Shown here: one piece after another, positions 6,318 to 58,960 of the stretch
Position numbering within the stretch: position 1 is the first letter of the stretch
Layout of the letters: each line of letters opens with the position of its first letter
Source of the DNA: an uncultured Enterobacteriaceae bacterium
Lineage (GTDB): Bacteria > Myxococcota_A > UBA9042
Length of the DNA: 64,000 nucleotides
Reading direction: 5' to 3'
NCBI GenBank assembly: GCA_964586155.1
Contig: CAZPHC010000008.1
Span: forward strand, 112,110-176,109
Program-made: the position numbers and the translations under genes
The notes under the pieces: model-generated
What the model saw: only the letters and a program-made list of their open reading frames with translations
Told to the model about the DNA's origin: nothing
Database searches by the model: none

Positions 6318-6351
6318 CTCCGAGCGACTCGCAGGACCACGAGACGGGCCC

Positions 6352-43322: not shown

Positions 43323-44027
43323 ATGCCCGAGCTGCCGACCACGGACGTCACCCCGAATCTGTGGGCCCCGTACCTGCGGGCCACGTCGTTCCTCGACTTC
43401 GACCATCCGGCGGTCGCGGCGTTCGTCCGGGCCCACAGCCTCGACGCTGGCGCGAGCGCCATCGAGCGCGCCGTCTCGCTCTACTACGCCGTCCGTGACG
43501 GTTACCGGTACAGCCCGTGGAACGTCGCCAGCACGCCGGCCGGGTTCGCCGCCAGCGTCGTCGTCGCCCGCGACGAGGCCGACGGCGCGCACTGCGTCGA
43601 CAAGGCCGTGCTGCTCGCTGCCTGCTGTCGCGCCATCGGCATCCCGAGCCGGCTGCATTTCGCCAACGTGCGCAACCACGTCGGCACCGCAGAGCTGGAG
43701 CGCCAGCTCGGCACGGACCTGCTGGTCTACCACGGCTACTGCGAGCTCTACCTCGAGGACCGCTGGGTCGCGGCGACGCCGGCGTTCAACCGGGCGCTGT
43801 GCGAGCGTCTCGGCGTCGCGCCGCTCGACTTCGACGGCCGCCACGACAGCGTGTTCCAGGCCTACGACCGCCAGGCTGGCCGCTTCATGGAGTACGTCGA
43901 CGACCACGGTTGCCACGCCGACGTGCCCTACGAGGCGATGGTCGCGGCGTGGAAGCGCCACTACCCCAAGTTCGCCGCGATGGGGGCCTGGCCGCGGCCC
44001 GGGGCGGCGCCCTTGCCGGGGGCGTGA
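43323..44027 (+). CDS. transglutaminase-like cysteine peptidase superfamily protein
   Basis: GAHCVDKAVLLAACCRAIGIPSRL...YHGYCELYLEDRWV matches the Cys-His core pattern of transglutaminase-like domains. Confidence 0.7.
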   Translation: MPELPTTDVTPNLWAPYLRATSFLDFDHPAVAAFVRAHSLDAGASAIERAVSLYYAVRDGYRYSPWNVASTPAGFAASVVVARDEADGAHCVDKAVLLAACCRAIGIPSRLHFANVRNHVGTAELERQLGTDLLVYHGYCELYLEDRWVAATPAFNRALCERLGVAPLDFDGRHDSVFQAYDRQAGRFMEYVDDHGCHADVPYEAMVAAWKRHYPKFAAMGAWPRPGAAPLPGA

Positions 44028-44157
44028 GTGGGCGACGCGAGCATGACCTCTGACGAGCGCCTTCGACTCGCGTCGCCGGGCCTGTGCGACGCAAGTTGTG
44101 ATGCGGTTCAGCCTCGAGGTTGGTTGCGCGCTGTGTCGTGGCCGCTGAGAGAAGATC

Positions 44158-44190
44158 GTGCGATCGCGCGATCGCACTTCGTCCTTGACA
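44158..44190. promoter_or_regulatory. perfect 20-bp palindrome followed by TTGACA upstream of the metzincin gene
   Basis: GTGCGATCGC/GCGATCGCAC at 44158-44177, with TTGACA at 44185-44190, about 75 nt upstream of the ATG at 44266. Confidence 0.4.
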
Positions 44191-44265
44191 GGCGACGCGC
44201 CAGATTCGACTCTCGCAGACGAGCCCGACAAGATTTGGACATTCGGCCCTGACGCGGAGGATGCG

Positions 44266-47200
44266 ATGGACGGCGCGACTCAACGCAACGCAACGCAACG
44301 CAACGCAACGCAACGCAACGCAACGCAACGCAACGCAACTTGGCGGAGCCGTAGCCGCCGCGCAACTTGGCCGGCGTCGATCGTTCTGCTGATGTGCGCA
44401 GCACCGCCGGCCGCCATCGCCAAGCCGGCGCCCACGCCGGCGCGTGACCTGCCTCCCCCCTCCGTCGTGCCACGCGGCACCCCCTCGACCAGCACGATCG
44501 ACGCCGAGATCGCCGCCGACACGTCGCTGACGTTGGAATGCGAGCAACTGCTCGCATCGAACACGAAGCTCAGCGCGAAGAAGCGTGCGACGCTGCTGGC
44601 CGACTGCAAGGCGGGGACCGCCAATGGTGGCGGCGGCGGTGGCGGTGTGCAGGCGATGGCGATCAGCTACGACCCCAGCTACGACCACTGCGTCGACGGC
44701 AGCAAGACGCTGTGCGCCAACCCGGACGTGTTTCACTTCGTCGTCCGCACGTTTCAGGTGACGTCGAGCGCGCCGCTCACGGTGTCGACCGGCGACCTGC
44801 AGAGCATTGGCGGCTCGACGCCCGACACGGTGCTCTACTTGGTCAAGTGCGACACGTCGGCCTGCGACGCAGGCGACATCGTGGCGATCGACGACGATAT
44901 CGGCGGGTCGCCGATCAACTGGGCCAGTTCGATCACGGTCGCATCGCCGGCGGCAGGGACGTACGCCGCCTACGTCGTGGCGTACAGCGCCGCGCGCGGC
45001 GGGCTGTGCGATCTGTCGGTGAGCCAGGCTGGAGGGGTCAACTTCGTGGACCAAGATCGGCGATTTTCGCTGTGGAAGGTCGCCAACAAGGAGCTGCGGA
45101 CCGGCGATGTGGTGGTGGCGGCGACCAACCCTGGCGCGCCGAGCATGACGACTCCTGGCTATGCGAACTACCACGACAGCAAGGTGCTGGTCGTGTCGAA
45201 CAGTGCTTTCGACTGTAGCAGCAACTGCGGGCGGTCGCAGTTTGCGGATGATACCGCGTTCGGGTCGAGCGCGTCGACGTACATGACGCGGATGACGATC
45301 GGCGCGGCGCTTGGGTCGCCGACGGCGGCGAAGATCATGGTTGGGGTGTACAACGACTTCACGATAGGTGGAGAGTACTTTCGAATGCACGCGCGGTTGG
45401 CGCACATGCGACGTCATGTCAACGACGGCGGTAGCTGGAGTGGCAGCACTGCGTACAACGACGATGACAGCGACGGCGTGACATACGAGGTCGAGCTGCA
45501 GCTGGGGACGTGCGACGACCCCGACTCCGTCGACGGCACCGACGTGATCGTCGAGGGCTGGAACTGTGGTCAGGCGCAGGACTGGGTGGACGACCACGTC
45601 AACCTCTTCGAGAAGCAACAGATCTGTACCGGCAGCTCGAGCGACGCACGTTGCTGGCGGCCGAGCGACAGTGATCACGACGGCTTGGACGATGGGGCCG
45701 AGCTCTTCGTGCCGGTCATCAGCTGCGACGGTGCGCCGGCCGGGCCGTACCGGGAGGCGACCGGCTGCACGCGCGTCAATCCGATCGTCGGTACCTGCGA
45801 CAGCGGGGACTGGTGTGCCCTCGAGCCGGCCAGTGGCGACTTGGACTCCCCATGGTTCGGGCAGGATCCGACGGTGTACGATGGATTTGTCGAGGCGGAT
45901 TGGCTGGCGAGCACGAACGGCGCCATCGACGCCACTACGTCCGCCCATGCTCTGACCGCTGCGCAGCAAACGACACTCCGCAACATGTGGAGCGTGGAGC
46001 CTGGCCGATGCTGGGACGGCAGCACCGGTAGCTGCCCGGGAGCCAGCGACCTTCACTATCGCGTCAACCTCCATGCCTACGCCGGCAGCGGATGGCTCGT
46101 TGCGGATGACCGCGCTGAGCGTGAGATCATCAAGGGCGGCGAAGATGCCGGAGCCGTCTTCGCCCGTTCACACTTTTTTGCGCGATCGAAGCCGTCGCTA
46201 CGCCACTACGGAGTCCTGCGCTATGGCTTCGCGCTCCATCAGGCAGGCAATGGCTGGTCGGATTGGTCTCGCTCCTTCCAATGGGGCAACCTGGATCCCG
46301 CACCAGAGAAGGCACGATCGGCCTTCGCGCATGAACTGGGCCACTCGTTTGGCCTGGCCCATCGCCATGGCGCGCAGACGTGGGAAGTCTGTGGTCCAGG
46401 TCCAACGATGTGTACGCGCTGCGCACTGGACGGCGACGCGTGCACCTCGGCGTTGCCGAACCACAGCTGCAATCCGGCGCCCAACGCAGGCACCGCATGG
46501 CAAGAGAATCCAGTTCCGACGGTCATGTCGTACCAGTACAGCGGTGGAATGTTGCAGCAGCAGTCGTCGCTCCCAGGCAGTGTCTTCGACTATTCGCAGT
46601 GTTCCCAGGTCAACCTGCGCTACTCCAAGGGCCTGCTTGAGCGGAGGCTCGACGAGAAGGCCCTCGACAACTCTTGGGACGCTGGCAGTGCATTTGCCGG
46701 TTGGCAGCTACGATTGCTAACCCAGGCGATGTTCTGCTACCGGAGTCTGAACGTCTGTCGCGGCGGCATCGCGACGTTCGCCCTTCGCGAGGGCCAGGGC
46801 GGGTACTACGGGCCGACATGCGACCTCGACGGCTCTGGCGAGGCGACGACTTGCTATTTCAACTGGAATGGCCAGTTGCAGGGGCCAACTGATACCAGTT
46901 CGGCGCTTGGTGATACGGACATTACCGCGGGCCGGTGGAATGGCGATGCCAACGTGACCAGCAATCGGGAGGTCCTGGAAGACCAGGATGAGTGGGCACG
47001 AATTGTCTCCATGGGGCGGCTTTGGGCCGCGCGCGAACCGGGCAAGGCCATGTGCTTGTACGCCAATACGTTCAATGGGCCGCAGGTTGGCGATGATTTC
47101 TGTGGTTGGGGCGAGACGATCACGGTGGAAGGCGGGATGACGGCCGGGGGCGTCAACTACCCGATCGGCGGGTGCGCCGTGGCTGGCGACTGCGCGGGGG

Positions 47201-48057
47201 CGGGGGCGACTTGTTCGGCGGATCCGGCGACGTGCTCGGCGAATGAACAATGCCTGAGCGGAAGCTGTGTGTCGGGGCAGTGCGCATGCAGCTCAGACTT
47301 GGGGTGTCGATCGGGGCAGTGTGTGGCTGGGGCTTGTTTGACATACTGGGGTAGCTGTAGTTGTCAGAATGATGGCGAGTGTCCGGGTCAGCTCATTGAC
47401 TCGCTTCAGTGTGATTCTGGACCGAGTCCTGACCGATGTGTGACAGCTCGCACGTCCAGTGCTGTCGTCCCGCCTCAAAGCGAAGGGAGTCAGCCATGGG
47501 CACTTGGCGCGTCCGCCGCCTTCGATGGCTCCGACGATCGCATCAAATTGACAGGCGGCAGCAACTCGCGGCTCGAGGCCCTGTCCAGCACCTACGAGAA
47601 CCGCTTCACCCTCCATTTCGACTTTCGCTTTGACGGCTTTCAGGCCAGTGAGACAGCACATGTGCTGTGGAAGTCGGGGGCATTCCAGATGACGATCGCG
47701 AATGGAGATCAAATCCAGGCGTCAGTTGGCGGCCACACAGCGCTGGTCTGGTCGGGCTTCCAACGCGGCCGCTGGTATCGCGCCATCTGGTCGGCAAGCA
47801 AGAACGACCAAGGGCATTTTCTCTGGCTTCGGCGAATGGACCCAGAGACCGGGTGGTACGCAGACCCTGGCGATGGGGGCGGCGGCGCCTGCGTTTACCA
47901 GACGTGGACCTCTGAGCTGCCGTCGCCCGGAGACGTCTGGCTCGGCCACGACGGTGGCAGCGACGCAGACCTCTACTTTCACGGCCGCGTCGACAACGTC
48001 GCGCTCGTGAACTTTGTTGCAACCGCCCGGCCTTCTGGCTGTACGGCACAGCAGTAG
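44266..48057 (+). CDS. large secreted metzincin-type zinc metalloprotease with Asp-rich calcium-type repeats, a Cys-rich region and a LamG/ConA-like C-terminal domain
   Basis: GGAGG lies 5 nt upstream of the ATG at 44266. The signal-like segment is RSRSRRATWPASIVLLMCAAPPAAIA. Motifs include HELGHSFGLAH (HExxHxxGxxH), DDDSDG and DSDHDGLDDG, and the LamG-like FDGSDDRIKL...YFHGRVDNVALVN. Confidence 0.8.
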   Translation: MDGATQRNATQRNATQRNATQRNATWRSRSRRATWPASIVLLMCAAPPAAIAKPAPTPARDLPPPSVVPRGTPSTSTIDAEIAADTSLTLECEQLLASNTKLSAKKRATLLADCKAGTANGGGGGGGVQAMAISYDPSYDHCVDGSKTLCANPDVFHFVVRTFQVTSSAPLTVSTGDLQSIGGSTPDTVLYLVKCDTSACDAGDIVAIDDDIGGSPINWASSITVASPAAGTYAAYVVAYSAARGGLCDLSVSQAGGVNFVDQDRRFSLWKVANKELRTGDVVVAATNPGAPSMTTPGYANYHDSKVLVVSNSAFDCSSNCGRSQFADDTAFGSSASTYMTRMTIGAALGSPTAAKIMVGVYNDFTIGGEYFRMHARLAHMRRHVNDGGSWSGSTAYNDDDSDGVTYEVELQLGTCDDPDSVDGTDVIVEGWNCGQAQDWVDDHVNLFEKQQICTGSSSDARCWRPSDSDHDGLDDGAELFVPVISCDGAPAGPYREATGCTRVNPIVGTCDSGDWCALEPASGDLDSPWFGQDPTVYDGFVEADWLASTNGAIDATTSAHALTAAQQTTLRNMWSVEPGRCWDGSTGSCPGASDLHYRVNLHAYAGSGWLVADDRAEREIIKGGEDAGAVFARSHFFARSKPSLRHYGVLRYGFALHQAGNGWSDWSRSFQWGNLDPAPEKARSAFAHELGHSFGLAHRHGAQTWEVCGPGPTMCTRCALDGDACTSALPNHSCNPAPNAGTAWQENPVPTVMSYQYSGGMLQQQSSLPGSVFDYSQCSQVNLRYSKGLLERRLDEKALDNSWDAGSAFAGWQLRLLTQAMFCYRSLNVCRGGIATFALREGQGGYYGPTCDLDGSGEATTCYFNWNGQLQGPTDTSSALGDTDITAGRWNGDANVTSNREVLEDQDEWARIVSMGRLWAAREPGKAMCLYANTFNGPQVGDDFCGWGETITVEGGMTAGGVNYPIGGCAVAGDCAGAGATCSADPATCSANEQCLSGSCVSGQCACSSDLGCRSGQCVAGACLTYWGSCSCQNDGECPGQLIDSLQCDSGPSPDRCVTARTSSAVVPPQSEGSQPWALGASAAFDGSDDRIKLTGGSNSRLEALSSTYENRFTLHFDFRFDGFQASETAHVLWKSGAFQMTIANGDQIQASVGGHTALVWSGFQRGRWYRAIWSASKNDQGHFLWLRRMDPETGWYADPGDGGGGACVYQTWTSELPSPGDVWLGHDGGSDADLYFHGRVDNVALVNFVATARPSGCTAQQ
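44281..44335. repeat. pentanucleotide microsatellite (CAACG)x11 inside the 5' end of the CDS
   Basis: Eleven perfect units counted, followed by a degenerate CAACT. They encode (ATQRN)n. Confidence 0.95.
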
Positions 48058-48069
48058 AGGGGGGCGCAC

Positions 48070-49137
48070 ATGCGAGTCTCCCTCTGGCCTGCATGCGGTC
48101 TACTCGCGGCGATAGCTGCCCTCGCAGCTCCAGGCGGCTGCGGCTGCGAGCGCCCGCCTCACGCCGGCGACAGCGAAGCAGGAAGCACCGTGACCGACGC
48201 CATGCCAAGCGTCGACTCATTCGTGAACACAGTGACCGATGCCTTGGCGGAGTTGGACGAAGCAACGGCAAGTGAGAGCGAAGATGACGCGTCGAACGTC
48301 GACGACGTCGACGCATCGAGTGCCGAGGTGGTCCCCGACACGTCGCCGGACGCCCTGTGCACCAAGATCGATCTGCCCCTGCCCGGAGATGTGTGCACGG
48401 AGCTGGGGATTGTGCGCTGCACCAACGTGGAAGCCAAACCACTCACGGCAGGCAACAGCGATGGGGTTGACTGCTTTCGCCCCAATGCCGTCCGATGCAT
48501 GATGACCGAAGCTGGACTGCGGTGGGGTCTGGAGAATTGCAAAGTCTCGACGGGAGTCGAGCCCGGTGTACCGCCGGGCTTCGGACAGTGCGCGAATGGC
48601 GTTACGTGTGTCGTTCGCTCGGACACAGATCAAGGTTGTCAGCCAATTTCTTTTCTTGTCAAAGACTTACCGCAGCACCCACCATGGGAGCAGACTTCCA
48701 AGCTCAGCTCAGGTCATGCCGTCGGCGGGCAGTGGTGCTCTCCAACCTCAACCAACCCCCAGCTCCGTCCCGGCGCCCCACCGTGGTGCAGCGCAAACGC
48801 CGTCGTCCAATGCATGACCATCGACAAGAGCCCGTTCAAGGACCAAATCCTCGCAGCTGCAGGCGACTGCGCCAAGTACCTCCTGGTCGGCGAGTGGACC
48901 TTCCCGATCGAGCTCTGCCAGATCGAGCCCATGCACTGCTCGCCGAAGGAGCAGAAGTGCGTCCTGCCGCAGTACAAGTCGACCGCAGCGTGCAAGGAGT
49001 ATTTCTACCTCTGGTGCATGGACGAGAAGACGTACAAGGACCCCTTCTACGACCCCGTCACCAACAAGCTCCGCTGCAAGAAGGACTGCTTCGAAGCCGG
49101 CGCGCCTGGCTACGCGGCTGGAGAGAAGGGGCAATGA
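48070..49137 (+). CDS. secreted Cys-rich hypothetical protein
   Basis: RBS GAGGGGGG, ATG at 48070. The signal is MRVSLWPACGLLAAIAALAAPGGC, and many Cys follow. It starts 13 nt after the metzincin stop. Confidence 0.65.
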   Translation: MRVSLWPACGLLAAIAALAAPGGCGCERPPHAGDSEAGSTVTDAMPSVDSFVNTVTDALAELDEATASESEDDASNVDDVDASSAEVVPDTSPDALCTKIDLPLPGDVCTELGIVRCTNVEAKPLTAGNSDGVDCFRPNAVRCMMTEAGLRWGLENCKVSTGVEPGVPPGFGQCANGVTCVVRSDTDQGCQPISFLVKDLPQHPPWEQTSKLSSGHAVGGQWCSPTSTNPQLRPGAPPWCSANAVVQCMTIDKSPFKDQILAAAGDCAKYLLVGEWTFPIELCQIEPMHCSPKEQKCVLPQYKSTAACKEYFYLWCMDEKTYKDPFYDPVTNKLRCKKDCFEAGAPGYAAGEKGQ

Positions 49138-49281
49138 GCGCGACGCGTCACGATGGGGCAAACGTGGCGCCGCTGCCTGGGGCGTGAGCGGGCGACAACG
49201 GCAAATTTGGCCGTTCGGGCGCAATGGGCCTACGCTGGCGCAGCCGCCGGCCGCCCCTCGCGCTGGCGCTGGGAGCTCAGG

Positions 49282-50526
49282 ATGCGACTCTGGAACCGGC
49301 CGACGACGCGCGCGCGCCCCCCCTCGCCGCGGCCCTGGCTCGCGGTCTGCGCCGCCGCCCTCACGGGCGCGATGGTCGCTGGCTGCGGCGGAAAGGGCGA
49401 CGATCCGGCGCTGCCGCCACGCGCAGAGTCGGTCGCGGCGGGCCCCGCCGGCGCCGGCAAGCCCGTCGATCCGGCCCCCGCCAACGCGCCGCCGACCGAA
49501 GAGGCTGAAGAGTCGCCCGAACCGGTCGCCGCGCCTGAAGGTGCCACGCCCGGTGACGTGCTCGGGCCGGCGCCCAAGCCTGCCCGTCGCCTCGGCGCCA
49601 AGGGCGTCGCGGTCGGTGCCGACGGCAAGCCGGGCAAGCCGCTGCAGGCCGAGGTGCCCTGCGACGAGCTGGCGCCGGACTCGGCGTTCAAGCTGGCGAG
49701 CAAGGCCGAGATCCAGCTGCCGGCGCCCGCCGGCGAAGAGCCGGCGACGATCGAGGTCTGCCTGTTCCACAAGTCGACCGCACGCCAGGACGTCGAGCGC
49801 TTCGCCCGCACGGGCCGGCAACACGCCTTCGTCGCCGCCTTCCCCGGCCGCGACGTGGCCATCTGGACCGCTGACGAGCAGCAGTTCGAGCCGGCGACGC
49901 TGCCGGCCGACGCCGCCGTCAGCGCGTCGGGCTGGGCCGCCCTGCTGCCGACCGGCCTCGACGATCGCGTCGCGTTGGCCGTCGTCTCGGCCCGCTTCTA
50001 CGATGGCCCGGCGTCCGAGGTCGTGCGCACCGTGCGCGTCGGCCGCGTGCTCGAGCAGAAGGGCGGCCGCTGGGGCTGGCAGCCGCTGGCGCAGGTGGCG
50101 GTCGACAGCCTCGACCTCGACTACATCGACGCCCGCTGCAAGGCCGACCCCGCCGCCGAAGGCTGCGCCGACCTGGTCGCGCGCGCCGAGCGCTGGCGCG
50201 CCGAGGCCGAGCAGCGCAGCAGCCGCCGGCAGCAGCGGCTCGACGGCAAGGCCGCCGCCGGCCCCAAGGGCAAGCCCGAGGGCGACCCGCAATCCGAGTG
50301 GCTGCGCCGCGCCAACGCCGCCCTGGGCGCGCGCAAGCCCCACGACGCGGTCGTGGCCGCGCTGCACGTCGAGATGCTCTGTGGCGAGGCCGTGCTCGAG
50401 GCCCGCGCCGCGTTCGCCCAGGCCGCTCGCCTCGCCAACCAGCCGATCTTGCGCGTCGAGCCCAAGCCGCGCGCCACGGCGCTCTGCGGCCCGATGGCCG
50501 ATCGTGGCGGACCTGCGCGCAAATAG
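49282..50526 (+). CDS. hypothetical lipoprotein
   Basis: GGGAG RBS, ATG at 49282. The signal is MRLWNRPTTRARPPSPRPWLAVCAAALTGAMVAGC (lipobox). Confidence 0.65.
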   Translation: MRLWNRPTTRARPPSPRPWLAVCAAALTGAMVAGCGGKGDDPALPPRAESVAAGPAGAGKPVDPAPANAPPTEEAEESPEPVAAPEGATPGDVLGPAPKPARRLGAKGVAVGADGKPGKPLQAEVPCDELAPDSAFKLASKAEIQLPAPAGEEPATIEVCLFHKSTARQDVERFARTGRQHAFVAAFPGRDVAIWTADEQQFEPATLPADAAVSASGWAALLPTGLDDRVALAVVSARFYDGPASEVVRTVRVGRVLEQKGGRWGWQPLAQVAVDSLDLDYIDARCKADPAAEGCADLVARAERWRAEAEQRSSRRQQRLDGKAAAGPKGKPEGDPQSEWLRRANAALGARKPHDAVVAALHVEMLCGEAVLEARAAFAQAARLANQPILRVEPKPRATALCGPMADRGGPARK

Positions 50527-50550: not shown

Positions 50551-53500
50551 TCATTTGACCGCGCGGACGTAGACCAGCCAGCTGCCGTAGTTGTCCTTGC
50601 CGCAGATCGACATCGCGCCCTTGGTCCACATCTGGCCCGGGGCGGCGCATTGGTCGACGGCGGTCTGGCCGGGCACGAGCAGGGTCTTGCCGTCGCCTTC
50701 GAAGCAGCCGACGCCCCAGCCGCAGGTGAGCTTGTCGAAGTCGACGGAGTTGCCGCAGTTGACCGCCTGGCCATTGGCCGTCCAGGTGCCCGCGAGCGCC
50801 ACCTTCTTGGTCCAGCTCCAGCTGCCGGTGTACACCGGCGAGACGATGCCGTCGGTGTCGGACTCCTTGCACTTGTAGAGGAACTGCGCCTTCGGCCCCA
50901 TCAGCTTGGCCAGCTGTTCGCCGCTGATCTTGCTGTCGATGCGCGTCCAGCCACCGCCGGCGGTCGTCAGGTCGCAGCCGGTCGCGAACGAGGGCAGCTC
51001 GTCCTTGGGGTCCGGGTCGATCCAGACCTGGCTCAGGCCGGCGAGCTTGCTCGTCGCGCCGAACGCCTGGCAGCTGGTCGCGGCCGCACCGGGGGCGCCG
51101 CCGAGCAGGTCGCCGCAGCTCGTCAGGTCGAGGCGGACCTTGCGTACGCGGTTGTATTGCGCGTCGGCGACCCAGACGGCCCCCTTGGCGTCACGGCCGA
51201 GGCTGAGGTTGTTGCCCAGGCGGGCCTGCGGGCCGAGTCCGTCGAGCCAGCCCTCGGTCGTGAGATGGCCGACGATGGACTCGACGCGCTGCGTCGGCCA
51301 GACGCGCCGCACCGCGCTCGATCCGGTCGAGGTCACGAGCAAGGTCCCGTCCGGCAACGCCACGACATCGGTGGGCCGGTAGAACGTGCCACCGCGGCGG
51401 CCCACGCCGTCGACGTTGTTGCGCAGCGGCGGGCCCGCGTCGCCGATCACCGTCGTGAGCAGGCCGGTCGTGTCGAGCTTGCGCACGCTGTGCGTGTCGG
51501 CGTCGGCGATCCAGAGCACGCCCTTGGTGTCGTAGTCCAGGCCCTCGGGGTTGCACAGCTTGTTCGCACCGAACGGGCCGTCGACCGCGCCGCACGCGCC
51601 CAGGGTGCCCGCGACGGTGGTCACCTTGCCGTTGGTGTAGCGACGCAGCAGATGGTTGCCGGCGTCGGCGATGGTCACGATGCCGTCGGCGGTGGCCGCG
51701 ACGCCCAGGGGGTTCTTGATCGTCGCCGCGAGGCCGTCACCGTCGTACGCGCCGGCCTTGCCGTTGCCGATGATGCTCGAGACATTGCCGTCCGGGTCGA
51801 CGCGGCGGATGCGCTGGTTGTTCGGATCGCTGACGTAGAGGTTGCCCGCGCCGTCGACGGCGATACCCGTCGGGTTGGAGAACTTGGCCGCTCCGCCTTT
51901 GCCTTCGGCGTAGCCGGGGCCCTTGCCGCCGGCCAGGGTCGTGACCTTGCCGTCGGGCTCGATCTTGCGCACCGCAGCGCCGTAGTAGTCGACGGCGTAG
52001 AAGTTGCCCTTGTTGTCGCCGACGATGTCGCGCGGAGAGGCGAACATGACCTCGTTGCCCACGCCGTCCTTGACGCCGTTGCCGCCGCCGCCCGCCATCG
52101 TCGTGATCACGCCCACGCTGCTGCATTGGCCGTTGTAGCACTGCTTGGAGCATTCGCCGGCGCTGCCGCAGAGCGTGCCGTCGACCCGCGCCTTGCTGCG
52201 GCAGACGCCCTCGGCCGGATCGCAGGTGGCCTCCTGGCAGGGGTTGCCGTCGTCGCACAGCGTCGTGCCCGCGTCGCTGTGCTTGCAGCCGACCTTCGGA
52301 TCGCAGATGTCGAGCGTGCAGTCGTTGCCGTCGTCACAGGTCGAGCCGATCGGCGTGATGCGGCGCAGGGCATGGACGCTCGGCACGCTGACCAACACCG
52401 AGCCACCGCCCGCGTCAGCAAGGCCCGAGGCGACGCTCAAGGCCACCGCGCCGCCAAAGCCCTGCATCTGCTTGCCGCCGCCGGCGACCATGGTCACCTC
52501 GTTGCGGACCGGATCCCAGCGCCGGACGACGTGGAGCTGCGCGTCGCTGAAGTAGACGCCCGCGTCGGTGGGCAGCACGCTGCGCATGTTGTAGATGCGC
52601 ACCGAGAGCGAGCCGACGCCCGTCAGGGGCGCCTCCGGGCCACCGTCGGCGAGCACGGTGCTGACGACGCCGGCCGGGTCGATCTTGCGCAAGCGGCCGC
52701 CTGCCCACTCTGCCACCCAGAGGGTGCCCTTCTTGTCGAGCGCGACGTCCACCGGGTAGTGGAAGCGCGCCACCGAGCCCGGGCCGTCGAAGCCGCCGAT
52801 GTTGCCGTCGCCGGCGATCGTGGTCGTCGTGCCGTCGGCGCCGATCTTGCGGATGGCGTGGTTGGCGAAGTCGGCGAGGAAGGCGGCACCTTCGGCATCG
52901 ACCGTCAGCGCCAGGGGTTCGCGGAACCGGGCATCGGCGCCCTTGCCGTTGACCAGGCCGAACGCGCCGGTCTTGCCCGCCAGCAGCGTGACCGTGCCGT
53001 CCGCTGCGACGCGGCGGATGGTGTGGTTGTAGCGATCGGCGACGAAGAGCTCGCCCTGCTTGCCGAGCGCGATGTCTTCCGGTCGGTTGAAGCGGGCTTC
53101 CGTGGCGCCGCCGTTGGTGTCGCCCGAGGCCTGGCCCGGCCCGCCCGCGACCGTGTCGACCGTGCCGTCGGGGAGCATGACGCGGATGGTGTGGTTGTTC
53201 GCGTCTGCGATCCAGACCTTGCCCTTGCCGTCGGTCGCCATGCCAGTCGGGTAGTAGAAGCCCGCGACCGCGACCTGGCCCGCCAGCTTCACCGTGCCGT
53301 CGCGGGCGTTCACCGTGTTGAACGCCGCGGCCTCGCTGCCGGCACCGTGGCGCACCACGACCTGGTCAGGGTCCGCGAGGCAGCTGCCTCCGTTGCAGCG
53401 CTCGCTGGTCGTGCAGGCGCTGCCGTCGTCGCAGGGATCGCCGTCGGTCTTGGTCGTGTGTGCGCAGCCCTTCTGCGGATCGCAGGTGTCGACGCTGCAC

Positions 53501-56500
53501 GAGTTGTTGTCGTCGCAGCCGAAGCCCACGATGTTCTTGCAGGTGCAGCCCGTGACCTTGGTCCCGGCCTTGCAGACGCCTGCGGCGCAGACGCCGGCGT
53601 AGGTGCAGGCATCGCCGTCGTCGCAGGGCGAGGCGTCCGCGACGTGCTTGCAGCCGATCTTGGGCACGCAGGCGTCGACGGTGCAGCTGTTGCCATCGTC
53701 GCAGCCCAACACGGGCGATTGCAGCGCGACGAGCGTGTGCTTGTTGGTCCAGGTGACCCAGATCTCGCCGTTGTTGCCCTCGGTGATGCCGGCGGGGTTG
53801 GCGAGGTTGAGCGCTTGCGCCGGGCCGTTCTGGGCGCTGCCACCGCCCGCGATGAACTGCAGCCGGCCGGTGATGTCGATGCGCGAGATGAAGCCGTCGT
53901 AGCTCGCGACGAGCAGCGATCCGTCCCCGGCCACCGCGATGGCGCGGGGGTGCCGCACCGAGGCGCCCAGGCCGACGCCCTCGAGGTCGATCGGGCGGTC
54001 GTTGCCGACGACGGTGGTGACGATGCCGTCGGTGCCGATGCGGCGGATGGCGTGGTTGTAATGGTCGGCCACATAGACCGATCCGTCCGCGCCCATCGCG
54101 AGGCCCACGGGCTGCTCGAAGAGCGCGACCTCTAGCGGCCCGTCGCGCAGGCCCCAGTTCGATTGGCCGGTCAGCGTCGAGACGACGCCGGCCGCCACCT
54201 TGCGGATCCGGTGGTTGTGCCGGTCGGCCACCAAGACGCCACCCTTGCTCTCGACGAGGACGTCGTAGGGCTGGTTGAAGGTCGCGATCGCGACCGGGCC
54301 GTCGATGTACGAGACCGTGCCGGTGCCGGCGACGGTGCTGACGACGCCGGCCGCGCTGACCGCGCGGATCCGATGGTTGGCCATGTCCGCGACGACGTAG
54401 CCGCCGTCCGCGGTGAAGTCGACGCCGACTGGCTGGTTGAAGCGCGCGGCGCTCGGGCCACCATCGGCGAAGCCGACGCCACTGAAGCCGCCTGCGACCG
54501 TGACGACCTGGCCGTCGGGACGCAGCAGGCGCAACCTGCCGGCGTTGGACTCGGTCAGGGCGATCCGACCGTCCGGCGCACGCCGGATGGCTGCGGGCCA
54601 GTTGTAGCGGGCGACGTCGAGCTTGCCGTCGATGCCCCCGGCGTTGCCGCCCCAAAGCTTGGCGTTCGGGCTGGCCGCATAGCAGCTGCCGCCCTGGCAG
54701 ACGTTGAGCGCCGTGCAGGTGTCGCCGTCGCTGCAGGGCGCGCTGTTGGGCTCTGCGGTCCCCTCGCAGGCACCCGTCAGGCTGTTGCAGACGTCCTTGG
54801 TGCAGGTGTTGCCGTCGTCGCAGGTGTTCGCGGTGTGCTTGCACGAGCCGGATTGCTTGTCGCAGCTGTCGCGGGTGCAGATCTTGCCGTCGTCGCAGGT
54901 GTCGCTGCGCAGCCGGATGCGACGCAGCACGTGGTTCTCCCAATCGGCCACGACCAGCTCGCCGAAGGCGTCGAAGACCAGCCGGGCGGGGGTGTTGACC
55001 TTGGCTGCGTTGCCGATGCCATCGACGTAGCCGCTGCCGGCCGTGCCGATGATGGTCGTGACGGTGCCGTCGGGATCGATGCGACGAATGCGGTGGATGC
55101 CGCACTCGCTGATGTAGATCCGTCCGTCGGCCGCGGCCGCGACGCCGCAGGGATCGGTCAAGCGCACGGCGGCTCCCTTGCCATCGACGGCGCCAGCGAG
55201 GCCGTTGGCGCCCGCGACGGTCGTCACGGTGCCGTCCGCGAGCACGCGGCGGATGTTGTGGCGCCCGCGATCGGTGACGAGGAAGCTGCCGTCCGGGGCG
55301 CGGATCAGGCCGTAGGGCTGCGTGAAGCGCGCGGCCTCGCCCTTGGCGTCGATCGTGCCGCCGGCGCCCTGCTTGCCCGCGAACGGAGTCGTGGTGCCAT
55401 CGAGCGCGACGCGCCGCAGCAGGTTGTTGTGGCGATCGGCGACGAGGAGCGAGCCGTCGTCGAAGAGCGCGATCCCGGCGGGGTCGTAGAACTTGGCCTG
55501 CGCGCCCTTGCCCTCGGCGTAGCCCTGGACGCCGCTGCCGGCGAGCGTCGTGACCGTGCCGTCCGGGGCGACCTTGCGGATCGCGTCGAATCCGGCGTCC
55601 GAGACGTAGATCGTGCCGTCGGCGCCGTAGACCAGGCCGTTGAGCCAGCCGAAGGTCGGCGCCTTGCCATCGGTCAGCTTGTCGCCATAGAAGAAGTTGT
55701 GGTTGCCGACCACGCTGCGCACCTGGCCGTCGAGGCCCACTTCGCGGATCACGCCGGCCTGATCGTCGACGAAGCCGATCGCGCCGCTCGGGGCGAGCGC
55801 CACGCCCACCGGGCGGCGCAGCTGCGCGGTGCGCCAGTGCCCATCGCCGATCGCCGACGTGCCCGTGCCCGCGAGCGTCTCGATCTCGACGGTCGCCGGC
55901 ACCATGCTGCAGACCCCGCCGGTGCAGGTCTCGCCCTTGCTGCAGGCGTCACCGTCGTTGCAGGCGGTGCCGTCCACCTTGCCCTTGCACTGCGCCGGGT
56001 CGACGCTGCACGCGGCGGACTTCGGACCCGCGGTGCACTTGCCGGACTTGCAGGTGTCGCCGACGGTGCACGGGTCGGCGTCGAAGCAGGCGACGCCGTC
56101 GGCCGCCGCCGCGTGGCTGCAGCCGACGCCCGGCGTGCAGGTGTCGATGGTGCAGGCGTCCTTGTCGTCGCAGCCCTCGGCCGAGGCGAAGTGCTGGCAG
56201 CCGACCTGCGTGCTGCAGACGTCGTTGGTGCAGGGGACCTTGTCGTCGCAGGCGACATCGGCGGCGAGGTGGGCGCAGCCCGTGATCGGGCTGCAGGTAT
56301 CGACGGTGCAGTCGACCCCATCGTCGCAGACCACCGAGGCCGAGACCTTGTCGTCGTGCTTGCACGCGCCGGTCTTCGAGTCGCAGCTGTCGACGCTGCA
56401 CGGGTTGTTGTCGGCGCAGTCCGCCGGCTTGCCGGGGACGCATTGGCCGCCCTTGCACGCGTCGCCGACCGTGCAGCCGTCGCCGTCGCTGCAGAGGTTG

Positions 56501-58827
56501 GAGTTGGTGATGCCGACGCAGCCGCTCTGCGGGTTGCACAGGTCGGTGGTGCACGGGTTGTTGTCGTCGCAGAGGTTCGGCTTGCCCTTGGTGCAGACCT
56601 TGTTGGCGCAGATGTCGCCGAGCGTGCACTTGTCGCCGTCGTCGCAGGCGGCGGTGTTGGCTTTGTAGAGGCAGCCGAGCTGCTTGTCGCAGCTGTCGTC
56701 GGTGCAGGGGTTGCCGTCGTTGCACTTGCCGCCGCTGTCGGCCAGCGGATCGACGCAGATGCCGGCCTTGCAGACCGTGTTGACGGTGCAGGTGTCGTCG
56801 TCGTCGCAGGGCTCGTCGGTGTGCAGCGGCGTCAGCTTGCACAGGCCGGTCTTGGCCTGGCAGATCGACTGCTGGCAGTAGCCGTCGTTGACCGTGGGGC
56901 AGGTGATCACCGTGCTCGGCTTGACCTTGCAGTTCCACGGGATGGCGTCCTTGGCGCAGTAGAGCGTGCCGTTGCAGACGTCGCCGTCCTCTTGCGGCAG
57001 GCAGTCGGTGTCGCCGTGGCAGAGGCAGATGTCGCCGCCGGGCTTGCACTTGCCGTTGTTGCAGGTGTCGCCCTTGGTGCAGACCTCGCCGTCCTCGCAG
57101 ACCTCGCCCTGGTGGACGAAGGTCATGGCGCATTTGCCGGTCTTGCCCTGGCAGATGCTCTGCAGGCATTCGGTGTTGTCGACGCTGGGGCAAGAGGGGA
57201 TCGTCGCCGGGTTGACCTTGCAGCTGCCCTTGCCTTGCTCGCCCTCGGCGGTGGACTTCTCGCAGTAGAGCTGGCCGTTGCAGAGATCGCCGTCGTCCTG
57301 GGCCGCGCAGTCGGCGTTGGTCGAGCAGACGCAGGTGTTGACGTCGTCGACGACGCAGCCGCCGGCCTTGCACACGTCGTTGGGCGTGCAGGGGTTGCCG
57401 TCGGCGTTGCACGGCGTGCCGTCGAAGACGGCGGCCATCTTGCAGCCGCCGGTCTTGGGATCGCAGGTGTTCTTGCTGCAGGTCGTGTCGTCGACGGTGG
57501 GGCAGACGACGATCGTGGCCGGGTTCACGGCGCAGGAGCCGGCCTTGACGTCGCAGTACGACACGCCGTTGCACGGATCGCCGTCGTCCTTGTCGGCGCA
57601 GTCGCTGTCGACCTTGCACGGGCAGGTGTTGGTCTCGGTCGCCAGGCAGACGCCGCCCTTGCAGGTCTCGCCCGGGGTGCAGGGGTTGCCGTCGTCGCAG
57701 ACCTCGCCGTCGCTGGTGGACTTCGGCGCGCAGGTGCCGGTCTTGGGGTCGCAGGTGTTGGTGCTGCACGTCGTGTCGTCGACCGTCGGGCACTTGACGA
57801 TGGTCTGGGGGTTGAGCTGGCACTTGCCGGTGGCCTTGTTGCAGAAGAGCGTGCCGTTGCAGGCGTCGCCGTCCTCGGCCTTGGCGCAGTCGATGTCTGC
57901 TGCGCAGCAGATCTGCGTGCCGCCGCCGCACGCGCCCTTGGTGCACGTCTCGCCGGCCGAGCAGGCGTCGCCGTCGTCGCAGGGGCCGCCGTCGGCGGTG
58001 GTCTTGAGCGAGCAGGTGCCGGTCGCAGGATCGCAGAGGTTCTTCTGGCAGGGCGTGTCGCTGCTGCCGTCGCAGTTGACGATCGTCGCAGGGTTCTGGA
58101 CGCAGGCCTTGCCGCCGCTCGCCTGCACCGCGCAGTACCACGAGCCGGCGCAGAGGTTGTCCTTGCCCTTGTCCTTGCAGTCGGCGTCGGTCTCGCAGAG
58201 GCAGATGTTGATCGGGCCCTTGCAGCTGCCGTCCTTGCAGGCGTCGCCGCTGGTGCAGGCGTTGTTGTCGTCGCAGGCGCTGGGCGTCGCGGCGGTCGGC
58301 ACGCTGACGCAGGTGCCGTCCTCGCACAGGTCGTCGGTGCAGGGGTTGGTGTCGTCGCAGTCCTTGGCCGCCGTGGCGACGCATTGGCCGCCGGTGCAGG
58401 TCGAGATGGTGCTGCACGGGTCGCCGTCGTCGCAGACCGAGGCGTCCGGCATCGTCGCCGGCACGCAGCCGAGGTTGCTGTCGCAGACAAAGCGCAGGCA
58501 CGGGCCGGGCGCGTCGCCGCAGTCGCCAGGGCCTTTGCACGGCGGGTTGCGGCCGAGGATGTCGCCTGGCACGTCCGCGGGGCTGGTGTCGCTGGCCGTG
58601 GCGGTGTCGGCGGCCGTCGCGGTGTCTTGCGCCTGGACGTCGCCGCCCGTGTCGCTGGCGCCAGCGTCCGGGCCGGGCTCGACGCTGTCGTTGCCGCAGG
58701 CCGCCAGGGCCAGCAGCGACAGCGAGACGGCCAGCTGCGCCAGGCGTGCGCGTGCGCGACTGCGCTGGGGCGGGGCGTCGGTGCGCGGACGGGGGAGGAG
58801 ATCGCAGGTCGGGGGGCACGCTGACAT
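50551..58827 (-). CDS. giant (about 2758 aa) lipoprotein: Cys-rich repeat arrays, four NHL-repeat beta-propellers and a fibrinogen-like CDxxxxGGGW C-terminal domain
   Basis: ATG at 58827 gives MSACPP...LAVSLSLLALAAC. Five units of about 95 aa (C.C..D.DC....DGD.CNG..YC...NP.TI..CP) are present, plus many CDDGNPCT.D.C modules. NHL motifs occur as F.QP.G.A...DG...VAD..NH.IRR. The C-terminus reads VWIDPDPKDELPSFATGCDLTTAGGGWTRI. Confidence 0.85.
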   Translation of the reverse strand: MSACPPTCDLLPRPRTDAPPQRSRARARLAQLAVSLSLLALAACGNDSVEPGPDAGASDTGGDVQAQDTATAADTATASDTSPADVPGDILGRNPPCKGPGDCGDAPGPCLRFVCDSNLGCVPATMPDASVCDDGDPCSTISTCTGGQCVATAAKDCDDTNPCTDDLCEDGTCVSVPTAATPSACDDNNACTSGDACKDGSCKGPINICLCETDADCKDKGKDNLCAGSWYCAVQASGGKACVQNPATIVNCDGSSDTPCQKNLCDPATGTCSLKTTADGGPCDDGDACSAGETCTKGACGGGTQICCAADIDCAKAEDGDACNGTLFCNKATGKCQLNPQTIVKCPTVDDTTCSTNTCDPKTGTCAPKSTSDGEVCDDGNPCTPGETCKGGVCLATETNTCPCKVDSDCADKDDGDPCNGVSYCDVKAGSCAVNPATIVVCPTVDDTTCSKNTCDPKTGGCKMAAVFDGTPCNADGNPCTPNDVCKAGGCVVDDVNTCVCSTNADCAAQDDGDLCNGQLYCEKSTAEGEQGKGSCKVNPATIPSCPSVDNTECLQSICQGKTGKCAMTFVHQGEVCEDGEVCTKGDTCNNGKCKPGGDICLCHGDTDCLPQEDGDVCNGTLYCAKDAIPWNCKVKPSTVITCPTVNDGYCQQSICQAKTGLCKLTPLHTDEPCDDDDTCTVNTVCKAGICVDPLADSGGKCNDGNPCTDDSCDKQLGCLYKANTAACDDGDKCTLGDICANKVCTKGKPNLCDDNNPCTTDLCNPQSGCVGITNSNLCSDGDGCTVGDACKGGQCVPGKPADCADNNPCSVDSCDSKTGACKHDDKVSASVVCDDGVDCTVDTCSPITGCAHLAADVACDDKVPCTNDVCSTQVGCQHFASAEGCDDKDACTIDTCTPGVGCSHAAAADGVACFDADPCTVGDTCKSGKCTAGPKSAACSVDPAQCKGKVDGTACNDGDACSKGETCTGGVCSMVPATVEIETLAGTGTSAIGDGHWRTAQLRRPVGVALAPSGAIGFVDDQAGVIREVGLDGQVRSVVGNHNFFYGDKLTDGKAPTFGWLNGLVYGADGTIYVSDAGFDAIRKVAPDGTVTTLAGSGVQGYAEGKGAQAKFYDPAGIALFDDGSLLVADRHNNLLRRVALDGTTTPFAGKQGAGGTIDAKGEAARFTQPYGLIRAPDGSFLVTDRGRHNIRRVLADGTVTTVAGANGLAGAVDGKGAAVRLTDPCGVAAAADGRIYISECGIHRIRRIDPDGTVTTIIGTAGSGYVDGIGNAAKVNTPARLVFDAFGELVVADWENHVLRRIRLRSDTCDDGKICTRDSCDKQSGSCKHTANTCDDGNTCTKDVCNSLTGACEGTAEPNSAPCSDGDTCTALNVCQGGSCYAASPNAKLWGGNAGGIDGKLDVARYNWPAAIRRAPDGRIALTESNAGRLRLLRPDGQVVTVAGGFSGVGFADGGPSAARFNQPVGVDFTADGGYVVADMANHRIRAVSAAGVVSTVAGTGTVSYIDGPVAIATFNQPYDVLVESKGGVLVADRHNHRIRKVAAGVVSTLTGQSNWGLRDGPLEVALFEQPVGLAMGADGSVYVADHYNHAIRRIGTDGIVTTVVGNDRPIDLEGVGLGASVRHPRAIAVAGDGSLLVASYDGFISRIDITGRLQFIAGGGSAQNGPAQALNLANPAGITEGNNGEIWVTWTNKHTLVALQSPVLGCDDGNSCTVDACVPKIGCKHVADASPCDDGDACTYAGVCAAGVCKAGTKVTGCTCKNIVGFGCDDNNSCSVDTCDPQKGCAHTTKTDGDPCDDGSACTTSERCNGGSCLADPDQVVVRHGAGSEAAAFNTVNARDGTVKLAGQVAVAGFYYPTGMATDGKGKVWIADANNHTIRVMLPDGTVDTVAGGPGQASGDTNGGATEARFNRPEDIALGKQGELFVADRYNHTIRRVAADGTVTLLAGKTGAFGLVNGKGADARFREPLALTVDAEGAAFLADFANHAIRKIGADGTTTTIAGDGNIGGFDGPGSVARFHYPVDVALDKKGTLWVAEWAGGRLRKIDPAGVVSTVLADGGPEAPLTGVGSLSVRIYNMRSVLPTDAGVYFSDAQLHVVRRWDPVRNEVTMVAGGGKQMQGFGGAVALSVASGLADAGGGSVLVSVPSVHALRRITPIGSTCDDGNDCTLDICDPKVGCKHSDAGTTLCDDGNPCQEATCDPAEGVCRSKARVDGTLCGSAGECSKQCYNGQCSSVGVITTMAGGGGNGVKDGVGNEVMFASPRDIVGDNKGNFYAVDYYGAAVRKIEPDGKVTTLAGGKGPGYAEGKGGAAKFSNPTGIAVDGAGNLYVSDPNNQRIRRVDPDGNVSSIIGNGKAGAYDGDGLAATIKNPLGVAATADGIVTIADAGNHLLRRYTNGKVTTVAGTLGACGAVDGPFGANKLCNPEGLDYDTKGVLWIADADTHSVRKLDTTGLLTTVIGDAGPPLRNNVDGVGRRGGTFYRPTDVVALPDGTLLVTSTGSSAVRRVWPTQRVESIVGHLTTEGWLDGLGPQARLGNNLSLGRDAKGAVWVADAQYNRVRKVRLDLTSCGDLLGGAPGAAATSCQAFGATSKLAGLSQVWIDPDPKDELPSFATGCDLTTAGGGWTRIDSKISGEQLAKLMGPKAQFLYKCKESDTDGIVSPVYTGSWSWTKKVALAGTWTANGQAVNCGNSVDFDKLTCGWGVGCFEGDGKTLLVPGQTAVDQCAAPGQMWTKGAMSICGKDNYGSWLVYVRAVK

Positions 58828-58960
58828 CGGAGCCTCGGGCACAAGGTGGGGCGGGGGGACGCTTTGCCCCCAGCATGCCAGAGTCGTTCGTCTTGCGGTA
58901 GGACCAACGTTCGCGTACCAACCGCACGGACGCGGCGCAGACGCAGCGCGGGGGCAGGCG

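What the first reader, a model, noticed from the sequence alone, without database searches (positions are those of the whole stretch)
44266..44395. (CAACG)x11 inside the first codons of a secreted metzincin/LamG protein: an opa-style translational phase-variation layout
Eleven perfect CAACG units (44281-44335) begin 15 nt after the only plausible start codon (ATG 44266, with GGAGG 5 nt upstream). They end just before the Arg-rich and hydrophobic signal segment WRSRSRRATWPASIVLLMCAAPPAAIA. The unit length of 5 is not a multiple of 3. With 11 units the ATG is in frame with the whole 1263-codon ORF. Worked by hand, adding one unit reads into TGA at 44390-44392, and removing one unit reads into TAG at 44352-44354. 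No in-frame ATG, GTG or TTG lies between the tract and ATG 44392, and starting at 44392 would delete the n-region and most of the h-region of the signal peptide. The tract is therefore hard to dismiss as 5' UTR. Neisseria opa genes use the same logic with CTCTT repeats in the leader-peptide coding region. I am not aware of SSR contingency loci being described for high-GC myxobacteria-like genomes. The two downstream secreted proteins (48070, 49282) would probably be co-switched through polarity.
Basis: partly seen in the sequence, partly recalled or inferred. Interest (0 to 1): 0.8.

Follow-up and report, generated by a model that had tools for sequence, protein, structure and literature searches.

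The report
Repeat-driven on/off switch, myxobacterial secreted protease
A run of eleven CAACG units sits just after the start codon of a secreted protease-like gene, and every known relative of this gene in environmental Myxococcota carries some slippery repeat at the same spot, often one unit out of frame, so this looks like a real mutational on/off switch in free-living bacteria, where such switches are barely documented.

Summary
(CAACG)11.8 is perfect at 44281-44339, 15 nt after ATG 44266, which has GGAGG 5 nt upstream. It lies ahead of the only signal-peptide segment of a 1263-codon ORF. Eleven units are in frame; 10 units stop at TAG 44352 and 12 units at TGA 44390.

All 11 orthologue lineages with recoverable 5' DNA (28-67% identical; Myxococcales, Myxococcota and Deltaproteobacteria MAGs and metagenomes) carry a repeat in the 5' coding part. 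The motifs differ: CAACG, GCCTC, AC, poly-C and poly-G. Background repeat density gives P of about 6e-18. Every out-of-frame allele is exactly one unit from a full-length protein with a signal peptide, and its 1,100-1,260-codon body is intact.

In two strain-level pairs (99.6% and 99.85% identical over more than 5 kb) the only indel lies in the tract. Two lineages have both ON and OFF alleles in nature.

The mechanism is the known one: slipped-strand translational phase variation, as in Neisseria opa and pilC. The host group and the gene family are new. The family is a weakly supported metzincin-like protein with a ConA/LamG-like C-terminal domain, followed by a conserved Cys-rich lipoprotein gene. 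Switching rate, reversibility and phenotype are untested.

The parts
44185..44190 (+). TTGACA, a candidate -35 element 81 nt upstream of the start codon
   Evidence: Read. A TTGAC(A) lies 66-107 nt upstream of the proposed start in 7 of the 13 loci examined (window, L001, L012, L002, L019, L022, L008) and at 72 nt in L018. The consensus promoter scan found no full sigma-70 match, so the transcription start is not fixed.
44256..44260 (+). Shine-Dalgarno sequence GGAGG, 5 nt before ATG 44266
   Evidence: Every orthologue has a GGAG/GGAGG/AAGGAG-type SD a few nt before the start codon that precedes its repeat.
44261..44263 (+). Alternative ATG, 5 nt upstream of the main start and in a different frame
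   Evidence: it is in frame with the ORF at 7, 10, 13 or 16 units. It abuts the SD (spacing 0), so it is probably little used. It could still make two of the three phases partly ON.
44266..44268 (+). Start codon ATG of the 1263-codon ORF
   Evidence: The same start is used in the public gene call P0001.
44281..44339 (+). (CAACG) x11.8 perfect pentanucleotide repeat, the switch element; it encodes (QRNAT)4 and has no stop codon in any frame
   Evidence: The homologous CAACG tract is present at the same place in the 67%-identical orthologue, with 8.6 or 11.6 units.
44341..44421 (+). Signal-peptide n-, h- and c-regions WRSRSRRATWPASIVLLMCAAPPAAIA, with inferred cleavage before KPAPTPA
   Evidence: It aligns with the AxA|K/S/D signal-peptide ends of the orthologues. 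No signal-peptide predictor was available; this is judged by inspection.
44352..44354 (+). TAG reached when the tract has one unit fewer or two more
44390..44392 (+). TGA reached when the tract has one unit more or two fewer; it overlaps ATG 44392 as TGATG
44266..48057 (+). Gene 1: secreted 1263-aa protein with an HELGHSFGLAH zinc motif, a Cys-rich region and a C-terminal ConA/pentraxin/LamG-like beta-sandwich
   Evidence: metzincin-type matches, all below threshold. (C-terminal fold, Foldseek E about 1e-6). Eight homologues in 5.8 billion proteins.
48070..49137 (+). Gene 2: conserved Cys-rich lipoprotein-like partner, 12 nt after the gene 1 stop; a likely operon mate
   Evidence: It lies 0-11 nt downstream of gene 1 in the loci where a downstream gene was called. 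The alignment has an invariant Cys at position 24 after a hydrophobic leader. No Pfam or NCBIfam hit.

Best explanation
The CAACG tract is a slipped-strand mutational switch (a contingency locus) that sets translation of a secreted metalloprotease-like/lectin-domain protein ON or OFF. Translation starts at ATG 44266. The ribosome must read through the repeat to reach the signal peptide and the 1,200-codon body. Gain or loss of one 5-nt unit during replication moves the start codon out of frame, and translation ends after 27-43 codons. A later slip restores the frame. The window allele (11 units) is ON. The same design is maintained across the whole gene family in Myxococcota, with whichever repeat motif a lineage happens to carry. 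This implies selection for switchability of this gene, and probably of the lipoprotein gene that follows it. Shown here: the tract, the frames, the conservation of a repeat at this site in all orthologues, tract-length polymorphism between near-identical strains, and natural ON and OFF alleles. Inferred: slippage as the mutational process, high rate and reversibility within a clone, polarity on gene 2, and the ecological reason for switching.
For: (1) Anatomy in the window: a perfect 59-nt repeat lies 15 nt after the SD-ATG and before the only signal-peptide segment. Both off-phases stop within 43 codons, and there is no alternative in-frame start.
(2) All 11 orthologue lineages with 5' DNA have a non-triplet repeat within 0-393 nt of the start. 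They are CAACG 8.6/11.6 (L012, L001), C8 (L002), GCCTC >=6 (L004-7), G8 (L008), AC 9.5/11.5 (L011, L022), G7 (L013), C11 (L014), G10 (L015), G10 (L018) and C10 (L024). Only 9 comparable repeats occur in the other 139 kb, giving P of about 6e-18.
(3) Every OFF allele becomes a full-length protein with a complete signal peptide after a change of exactly one unit. The downstream ORF of more than 1,100 codons is intact in all of them, as expected for transient rather than decaying inactivation.
(4) Strain-level polymorphism is confined to the tract. L001 and L012/L020 are 99.6% identical over 5,691 nt, and the only gap is 15 nt (3 units) in the CAACG tract. L002 and L019 are 99.85% identical over 5,403 nt, and the only gap is 1 nt in the poly-C tract.
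(5) ON and OFF alleles of the same gene occur in nature. MNTCPPVEH... (P0017 and P0015; 7-nt TC6 tract) is ON, while C8 (L002, L003) is OFF. The P0008 and P0022 proteins require C11 and are ON, while L024 has C10 and is OFF.
(6) In L013, L015 and L018 the tract lies inside or after the hydrophobic core of the signal peptide, so it must be translated.
(7) About one third of lineages are ON (3 of 10 scorable ON only, 2 mixed, 5 OFF), roughly as expected for a freely switching three-phase tract.
Against: No read-level or culture data were available for the window organism, so switching there is inferred. The two CAACG alleles of the sister species differ by 3 units and are both OFF, so no ON allele of a CAACG tract other than the window's has been seen. 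Homopolymer lengths in short-read assemblies can be wrong by one. However, lengths were reproduced in independent assemblies (L002=L003; L008=L009=L010=L016). ATG 44261 could rescue one off-phase. Weak downstream starts exist in some orthologues (GTG 609 in L002, GTG 114 in L011) and could give leaky expression. The transcription start is not mapped.
Confidence: 0.85

Rival explanations
1. The repeats are mutational hot spots without adaptive value. The out-of-frame copies are genes being lost, not genes that switch back.
For: Five of the 10 scorable lineages were seen only in an OFF state. All four assemblies of the sister CAACG species are OFF. No reversal was observed directly.
Against: A repeat is present at the same site in 11 of 11 lineages, with five different motifs. 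Decay would not create and keep them. Every OFF allele still has an uninterrupted body of 1,100-1,260 codons and is one unit from ON. ON and OFF alleles coexist at more than 99.8% identity.
Confidence: 0.07
2. The tracts tune expression rather than switch it. RNA polymerase slippage or ribosomal frameshifting on the repeat produces some in-frame product from every allele.
For: Six lineages use G or C runs of 7-11 nt. From general knowledge, long homopolymers can cause transcriptional slippage.
Against: The window, its sister species, the GCCTC lineage and the AC lineages use 5-nt or 2-nt units, for which no such RNA-level correction is known. The DNA tract lengths do differ between strains. 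This could add leakiness in the homopolymer lineages but does not replace DNA slippage.
Confidence: 0.05
3. The tract is 5' UTR or a short upstream ORF, and the real start codon lies downstream of it.
For: Gene callers placed starts downstream of the tract in OFF orthologues (P0002, P0003, P0006). One off-phase in the window ends in TGATG overlapping ATG 44392.
Against: Those downstream starts remove the charged n-region and part of the hydrophobic core of the signal peptide. No in-frame start exists between the tract and ATG 44392. An SD plus start codon precedes the tract in every lineage. ON alleles read from that start straight through the tract into the signal peptide. In L013, L015 and L018 the tract is inside the signal peptide.
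Confidence: 0.03

Closest known systems
Neisseria opa genes (CTCTT pentanucleotide repeats in the leader-peptide coding region)
   Same: A pentanucleotide repeat with no stop codon in any frame sits between the start codon and the hydrophobic part of the signal peptide. Unit number sets the reading frame, so one phase in three is ON. This is translational control by slipped-strand mispairing (general knowledge; Opa phase variation is listed in PMC11868660).
   Different: There is no sequence or structural relationship. Opa proteins are small outer-membrane adhesins of a host-restricted pathogen and form a multi-copy family within one genome. Here the gene is a single-copy 1263-aa secreted zinc-protease-like/lectin-domain protein in environmental high-GC Myxococcota. 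The repeat motif differs between orthologues.
Neisseria pilC1/pilC2 (poly-G tract within the signal-peptide coding region)
   Same: The orthologues L013, L015 and L018 carry G7-G10 inside the signal-peptide coding region, exactly the pilC layout (Jonsson et al. 1991, as summarised in PMC13190605).
   Different: The protein family, organism and function are different. The window itself uses a 5-nt unit, not a homopolymer.
Contingency loci / phasomes of Haemophilus, Campylobacter and Helicobacter; homopolymer phase variants in Mycobacterium tuberculosis (PMC10334774)
   Same: These are localised hypermutable repeats in the 5' coding regions of genes for surface or secreted products, with tract-length polymorphism among strains.
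   Different: All of those are host-adapted organisms. Long repeats are reported to correlate with dependence on a eukaryotic host (statement in PMC4060949). A 2025 review names soil and ocean bacteria as a knowledge gap (PMC11868660). Here the hosts are groundwater and other environmental-metagenome Myxococcota.

Membership tests
SSR-mediated translational phase-variable (contingency) locus | A perfect tandem repeat whose unit length is not a multiple of 3, lying inside the translated 5' part of an ORF | tested here: met
   (CAACG)11.8 at 44281-44339 lies between SD-ATG 44266 and the signal peptide.
SSR-mediated translational phase-variable (contingency) locus | A change of one unit causes a frameshift and early termination, and a further change restores the frame | tested here: met
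   In-silico alleles of 6-16 units: ON at 8, 11 and 14 units, stops after 22-48 codons otherwise. The same holds for 12 orthologous alleles.
SSR-mediated translational phase-variable (contingency) locus | Tract length is polymorphic among closely related strains while the flanks are conserved | tested here: met
   Met in orthologues. L001 vs L012/L020 have a 15-nt tract indel as the only gap in 5.7 kb at 99.6% identity. L002 vs L019 have a 1-nt tract indel as the only gap in 5.4 kb at 99.85% identity. C10 (L024) contrasts with C11 (P0008, P0022). Not tested for the window's own species, because no second genome was found.
SSR-mediated translational phase-variable (contingency) locus | High-frequency, reversible switching within a clonal population, with an ON/OFF protein phenotype | not testable with these tools
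   This needs reads or cultures. Only consensus assemblies were available.
Neisseria Opa family | Homology to the Opa outer-membrane beta-barrel and CTCTT repeats | tested here: not met
   Pfam and NCBIfam give no Opa-type hit and the repeat unit is CAACG. It works like opa but is not a member.
Metzincin zinc metalloproteases | An HExxHxxGxxH zinc-binding motif within a recognisable metzincin catalytic domain (plus a Met-turn) | tested here: inconclusive
   HELGHSFGLAH is present, and HExxH is invariant in the family. The Reprolysin, Matrixin and serralysin matches cover only the motif region and are below the curated cut-offs. The structural model of this region was unusable, with pLDDT below 50.
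LamG / concanavalin A-like lectin fold | A beta-sandwich jelly-roll superimposable on LamG, pentraxin or ConA-like domains | tested here: met
   The C-terminal ~150 aa were modelled at pLDDT 68-83. Foldseek hits are C-reactive protein, serum amyloid P, agrin and pikachurin LG domains, neurexin LNS and the trans-sialidase lectin domain, with E of 1e-6 to 1e-5 and TM (target) about 0.5. There is no Pfam hit, so the membership is at fold level only.
Sec-type secreted protein | An N-terminal signal peptide: a positively charged n-region, a hydrophobic core and an AxA-type cleavage site | tested here: met
   By inspection: RSRSRR / IVLLMCAAPPAAIA / AIA|K. Equivalent segments are present in all ON or reconstructed orthologues. 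No dedicated predictor was available.

The most novel reading that the evidence does not exclude
A whole gene family of free-living or predatory Myxococcota is obligatorily gated by slippery repeats. The family is a secreted zinc-protease-like/lectin protein plus a Cys-rich lipoprotein partner. The repeats have been born or replaced many times at the same 5' site, giving five motif classes in 11 lineages. This would be the first documented contingency-locus family in this phylum and one of very few in non-host-associated bacteria. It suggests stochastic ON/OFF expression of a costly or risky extracellular product in social soil and water bacteria. Possible reasons are a public-good enzyme, a phage or predator target, or a kin-recognition or toxin component.
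Probability: 0.6. Interest if true: 0.75.

Novelty: new member of a known kind. Interest (0 to 1): 0.68.

Why it matters
Phase variation by simple repeats is textbook biology for mucosal pathogens, but it is almost undocumented in environmental bacteria. A 2025 field review names soil and ocean bacteria as the gap (PMC11868660). Earlier surveys tied long repeats to host dependence (PMC4060949). This locus gives a concrete and testable case in Myxococcota. Natural ON and OFF alleles are already visible in public metagenomes. The family-wide pattern, with the same site but different motifs, argues for selection on mutability itself. It also flags a practical problem: gene callers truncate or split these genes (P0002, P0003, P0005 and P0006 all start at false downstream codons). 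Finally, it points to an uncharacterised protease/lectin plus lipoprotein pair whose expression these bacteria apparently need to randomise.

Tried and rejected
- The window's own protein could not be located in the contig index. The source organism is therefore unnamed, and no second allele of this exact locus was obtained.
- Pfam and NCBIfam gave no significant family for gene 1, gene 2 or gene 3. LamG was not detected by sequence.
- AlphaFold on residues 560-1263 with an 8-sequence alignment was poor (mean pLDDT 36) apart from the C-terminal domain. The protease fold could not be checked.
- The sigma-70 consensus scan found no promoter. Only a conserved TTGAC(A) can be offered.
- Logan contigs for the GCCTC lineage and one CAACG contig end inside the repeat. 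Their unit number and phase are unknown, and a contig break is not evidence of heterogeneity.
- The 1299 vs 1263 aa cluster members were considered as a possible gene-caller artefact. The JGI member P0021 may be one. The Logan pair P0022 and P0024 are distinct sequences, and L024 shows a real C10 frameshift.
- The idea that (QRNAT)n has a role as a peptide was rejected, because the encoded peptide is not conserved among orthologues.
- Seven literature searches found no description of repeat-based contingency loci in myxobacteria. Absence from the held library is not proof of absence.
Full report
**1. The observation**

The sequence shows GGAGG (44256-44260), a 5-nt spacer and ATG 44266. Five codons later come eleven perfect CAACG units plus CAAC, at 44281-44339. 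TRF reports 11.8 copies with 100% matches, the highest-scoring short-period repeat in the window. A four-unit probe is expected 0.00 times in dinucleotide shuffles.

The ORF continues to 48057. The public gene call uses the same start (P0001, 1263 aa). After the tract the frame reads WRSRSRRATWPASIVLLMCAAPPAAIA|KPAPTPA. This is a charged n-region, a hydrophobic core and an AxA-type end. No ATG, GTG or TTG is in frame until ATG 44392, which lies inside the hydrophobic core.

- 8, 11 and 14 units are open.
- One unit fewer stops at TAG 44352-44354.
- One unit more stops at TGA 44390-44392.

Two details were added here. A second ATG at 44261 abuts the Shine-Dalgarno sequence (SD) and would be in frame at 10 or 13 units. 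The tract has no stop codon in any frame.

**2. What the relatives show**

The protein is rare: 8 clusters in 5.8 billion sequences. DNA around the homologues was fetched. More loci came from GTDB genomes and JGI metagenomes. They include MAGs labelled Myxococcales, Myxococcota and Deltaproteobacteria.

Every lineage with 5' DNA has a simple repeat between its SD-start and the end of its signal peptide. One lineage has it at codon ~133 instead.

| Lineage (loci) | Identity to window protein | Repeat | State |
|---|---|---|---|
| Window | 100% | (CAACG)11.8 | ON |
| L012, L020 | 67% | (CAACG)8.6 | OFF |
| L001, L023 (same species as above) | 67% | (CAACG)11.6 with one CAACC | OFF |
| L002, L003 | 58% | C8 | OFF |
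| L004-L007 | 57% | (GCCTC)>=6; all contigs end in the tract | unknown |
| L008-10, L016/17 | 47% | G8 in a Gly linker | OFF |
| L011 / L022 | 43% | (AC)9.5 / (AC)11.5 | OFF |
| L013 | 41% | G7 | OFF |
| L015 | 47%, partial | G10 | ON |
| L014 | 32% | C11 | OFF |
| L018 | 33% | G10 | ON |
| L024 | 28% | C10 | OFF |

With one fixed repeat definition, 11 of 11 lineages have a repeat within 425 nt of the start. Only 9 comparable repeats occur in the remaining 139 kb. That gives p = 0.027 per zone, or about 6e-18 for all lineages.

The window and its 67% relative share the CAACG motif, so those two are not independent. The other motifs are different, which points to repeated origin or replacement at one site.

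**3. Frames**

In each lineage an SD precedes the start codon that lies upstream of the tract. For every OFF allele, a change of exactly one unit yields a full-length protein whose N-terminus is a complete signal peptide. The other phases stop within 7-84 codons for tracts near the start. For the G8 tract at codon ~133 of L008 they stop shortly after the tract, at 135-145 aa.

The gene callers' downstream starts remove the n-region. Examples are MTLACVWPTLATA|K and MLLQPGDAFA|A. In L013, L015 and L018 the tract lies within or after the hydrophobic core, so it must be translated. The body of the gene (1,100-1,260 codons) is uninterrupted in all OFF alleles. This fits transient inactivation and not decay.

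**4. Polymorphism**

- L001 and L012/L020 are 99.6% identical over 5,691 nt. Their only gap is 15 nt (three units) in the CAACG tract.
- L002 and L019 are 99.85% identical over 5,403 nt. Their only gap is 1 nt in the poly-C tract.
- L019 and the NCBI protein MEY3015251.1 (P0015) read MNTCPPVEH... from the SD-ATG and are ON. L002 and L003 have C8 and are OFF.
- In the most distant lineage, P0008 and P0022 begin MKASKAQQPAASPPPRKGNL..., which needs C11. L024 has C10 and is out of frame.

Tract length is therefore the variable character between near-identical genomes, and both expression states occur in nature. Of ten scorable lineages, three are seen only ON, two are mixed and five are seen only OFF. 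This is roughly the one-in-three expected for a three-phase switch.

**5. Mechanism**

The best explanation is slipped-strand mispairing at the tract during replication. Slippage would change the unit number and so the reading frame between start codon and signal peptide. This is the logic of Neisseria opa (CTCTT in the leader) and pilC (poly-G in the signal peptide; PMC13190605).

- Shown: the anatomy, the family-wide conservation of a repeat at this site, tract-only indels, and ON/OFF alleles.
- Inferred: the rate and reversibility within clones, and the effect on the downstream gene.

Gene 2 (48070-49137) is a Cys-rich lipoprotein-like protein. It is conserved 0-11 nt downstream of gene 1 in the seven lineages compared, so co-regulation is plausible but untested. 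The gene at 49282 is 145 nt further on and has its own SD. It is not seen next to the pair in the loci that extend far enough, where a different or opposite-strand gene follows. It is unlikely to belong to the unit.

**6. The protein**

Only the HExxHxxGxxH motif region matches metzincin families, and these matches are below threshold. The C-terminal ~150 aa fold as a ConA/pentraxin/LamG-like beta-sandwich. The rest could not be modelled. 'Secreted metzincin/LamG protein' is therefore reasonable but only partly verified.

**7. Rivals**

- Neutral hot spots and gene decay (0.07). This is contradicted by 11 of 11 lineages with different motifs and by the intact gene bodies.
- RNA-level slippage that tunes expression (0.05). 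This is possible only for the homopolymer lineages, and the DNA lengths do differ.
- 5' UTR or upstream ORF with a downstream start (0.03). This is contradicted by the signal-peptide anatomy and by the ON alleles.

**8. Novelty**

The mechanism is known, so this is a new member of a known kind. What is new is the setting: environmental, high-GC Myxococcota. The family-wide turnover of motifs at one site is also new. Seven full-text searches found no description of repeat-based contingency loci in myxobacteria. A survey paper states that long repeats correlate with host dependence (PMC4060949). A 2025 review lists soil and ocean bacteria as an open gap (PMC11868660).

**9. Limits**

- Only consensus assemblies were available, with no reads.
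- Homopolymer lengths from short reads carry some risk, although they were reproduced across independent assemblies.
- The promoter and transcription start are unmapped.

Noticed in passing
window 4587-4628 (compare 6175-6300): A second perfect repeat, (GCTC)x10.5, lies in an intergenic region about 70-110 nt upstream of a minus-strand gene (start codon at 4516-4518, SD GGAGG). A paralogous copy of this upstream region at 6175-6300 is almost identical over about 95 nt but has only GCTCGC at that point. The repeat therefore expanded in one copy. It may be a promoter or 5'-UTR length switch. The 276-aa product has no Pfam family.
   Followed up: partly
window 49317-49323: A C7 run lies in the charged n-region of the lipoprotein-type signal peptide of the gene starting at ATG 49282 (MRLWNRPTTRARPPSPRPWLAVCAAALTGAMVAGC...). 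Adding one C or removing two stops translation after 74-75 aa. The other off-phase stays open. It is a short tract, and no orthologue comparison was made.
   Followed up: partly
window 6349-6453: A 17-nt unit (CCCACCGATGTCGCCGC) is repeated 6.2 times, at 93% identity, just upstream of a Uma2-family endonuclease gene.
   Followed up: no
window 44158-44177: A perfect 20-bp palindrome, GTGCGATCGCGCGATCGCAC, lies 8 nt upstream of the TTGACA at 44185. It may be a regulator binding site for the switch gene's promoter. The terminator scan flagged it on the minus strand.
   Followed up: no
window 44021-44036 and 49181-49196: The 16-mer GGCGTGAG[T/C]GGGCGAC occurs twice, each time just after a gene end and upstream of gene 1 and of the gene at 49282. 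Only 1 of 100 shuffles reached two matches.
   Followed up: partly
window 48028-48054 (protein C-terminus) and orthologues: The extreme C-terminus ...RP(S/x)xC(T/S)xQQ is conserved across most of the family (the most distant member, P0008, ends CTEVP). It resembles no sorting signal that I could name.
   Followed up: no
L022 649-657; L024 1875-1882: Other homopolymers occur near relatives. A C9 run (G9 on the gene's strand) lies just upstream of a minus-strand DUF3592/LRR gene in L022. A G8 run lies inside the orthologue body in L024.
   Followed up: no
window 50551-59112 (minus strand): The neighbouring gene encodes a 2853-aa protein with many NHL/teneurin-NHL repeats and Dictyostelium-type Cys repeats. 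It shows that this is a region of large secreted or surface proteins.
   Followed up: no
L001, L002, L008, L011 gene calls (P0002, P0003, P0005, P0006): Automatic gene callers start these orthologues at false downstream codons, or split them into two ORFs, because the repeat is out of frame. Database entries for this family are therefore systematically N-terminally truncated.
   Followed up: yes
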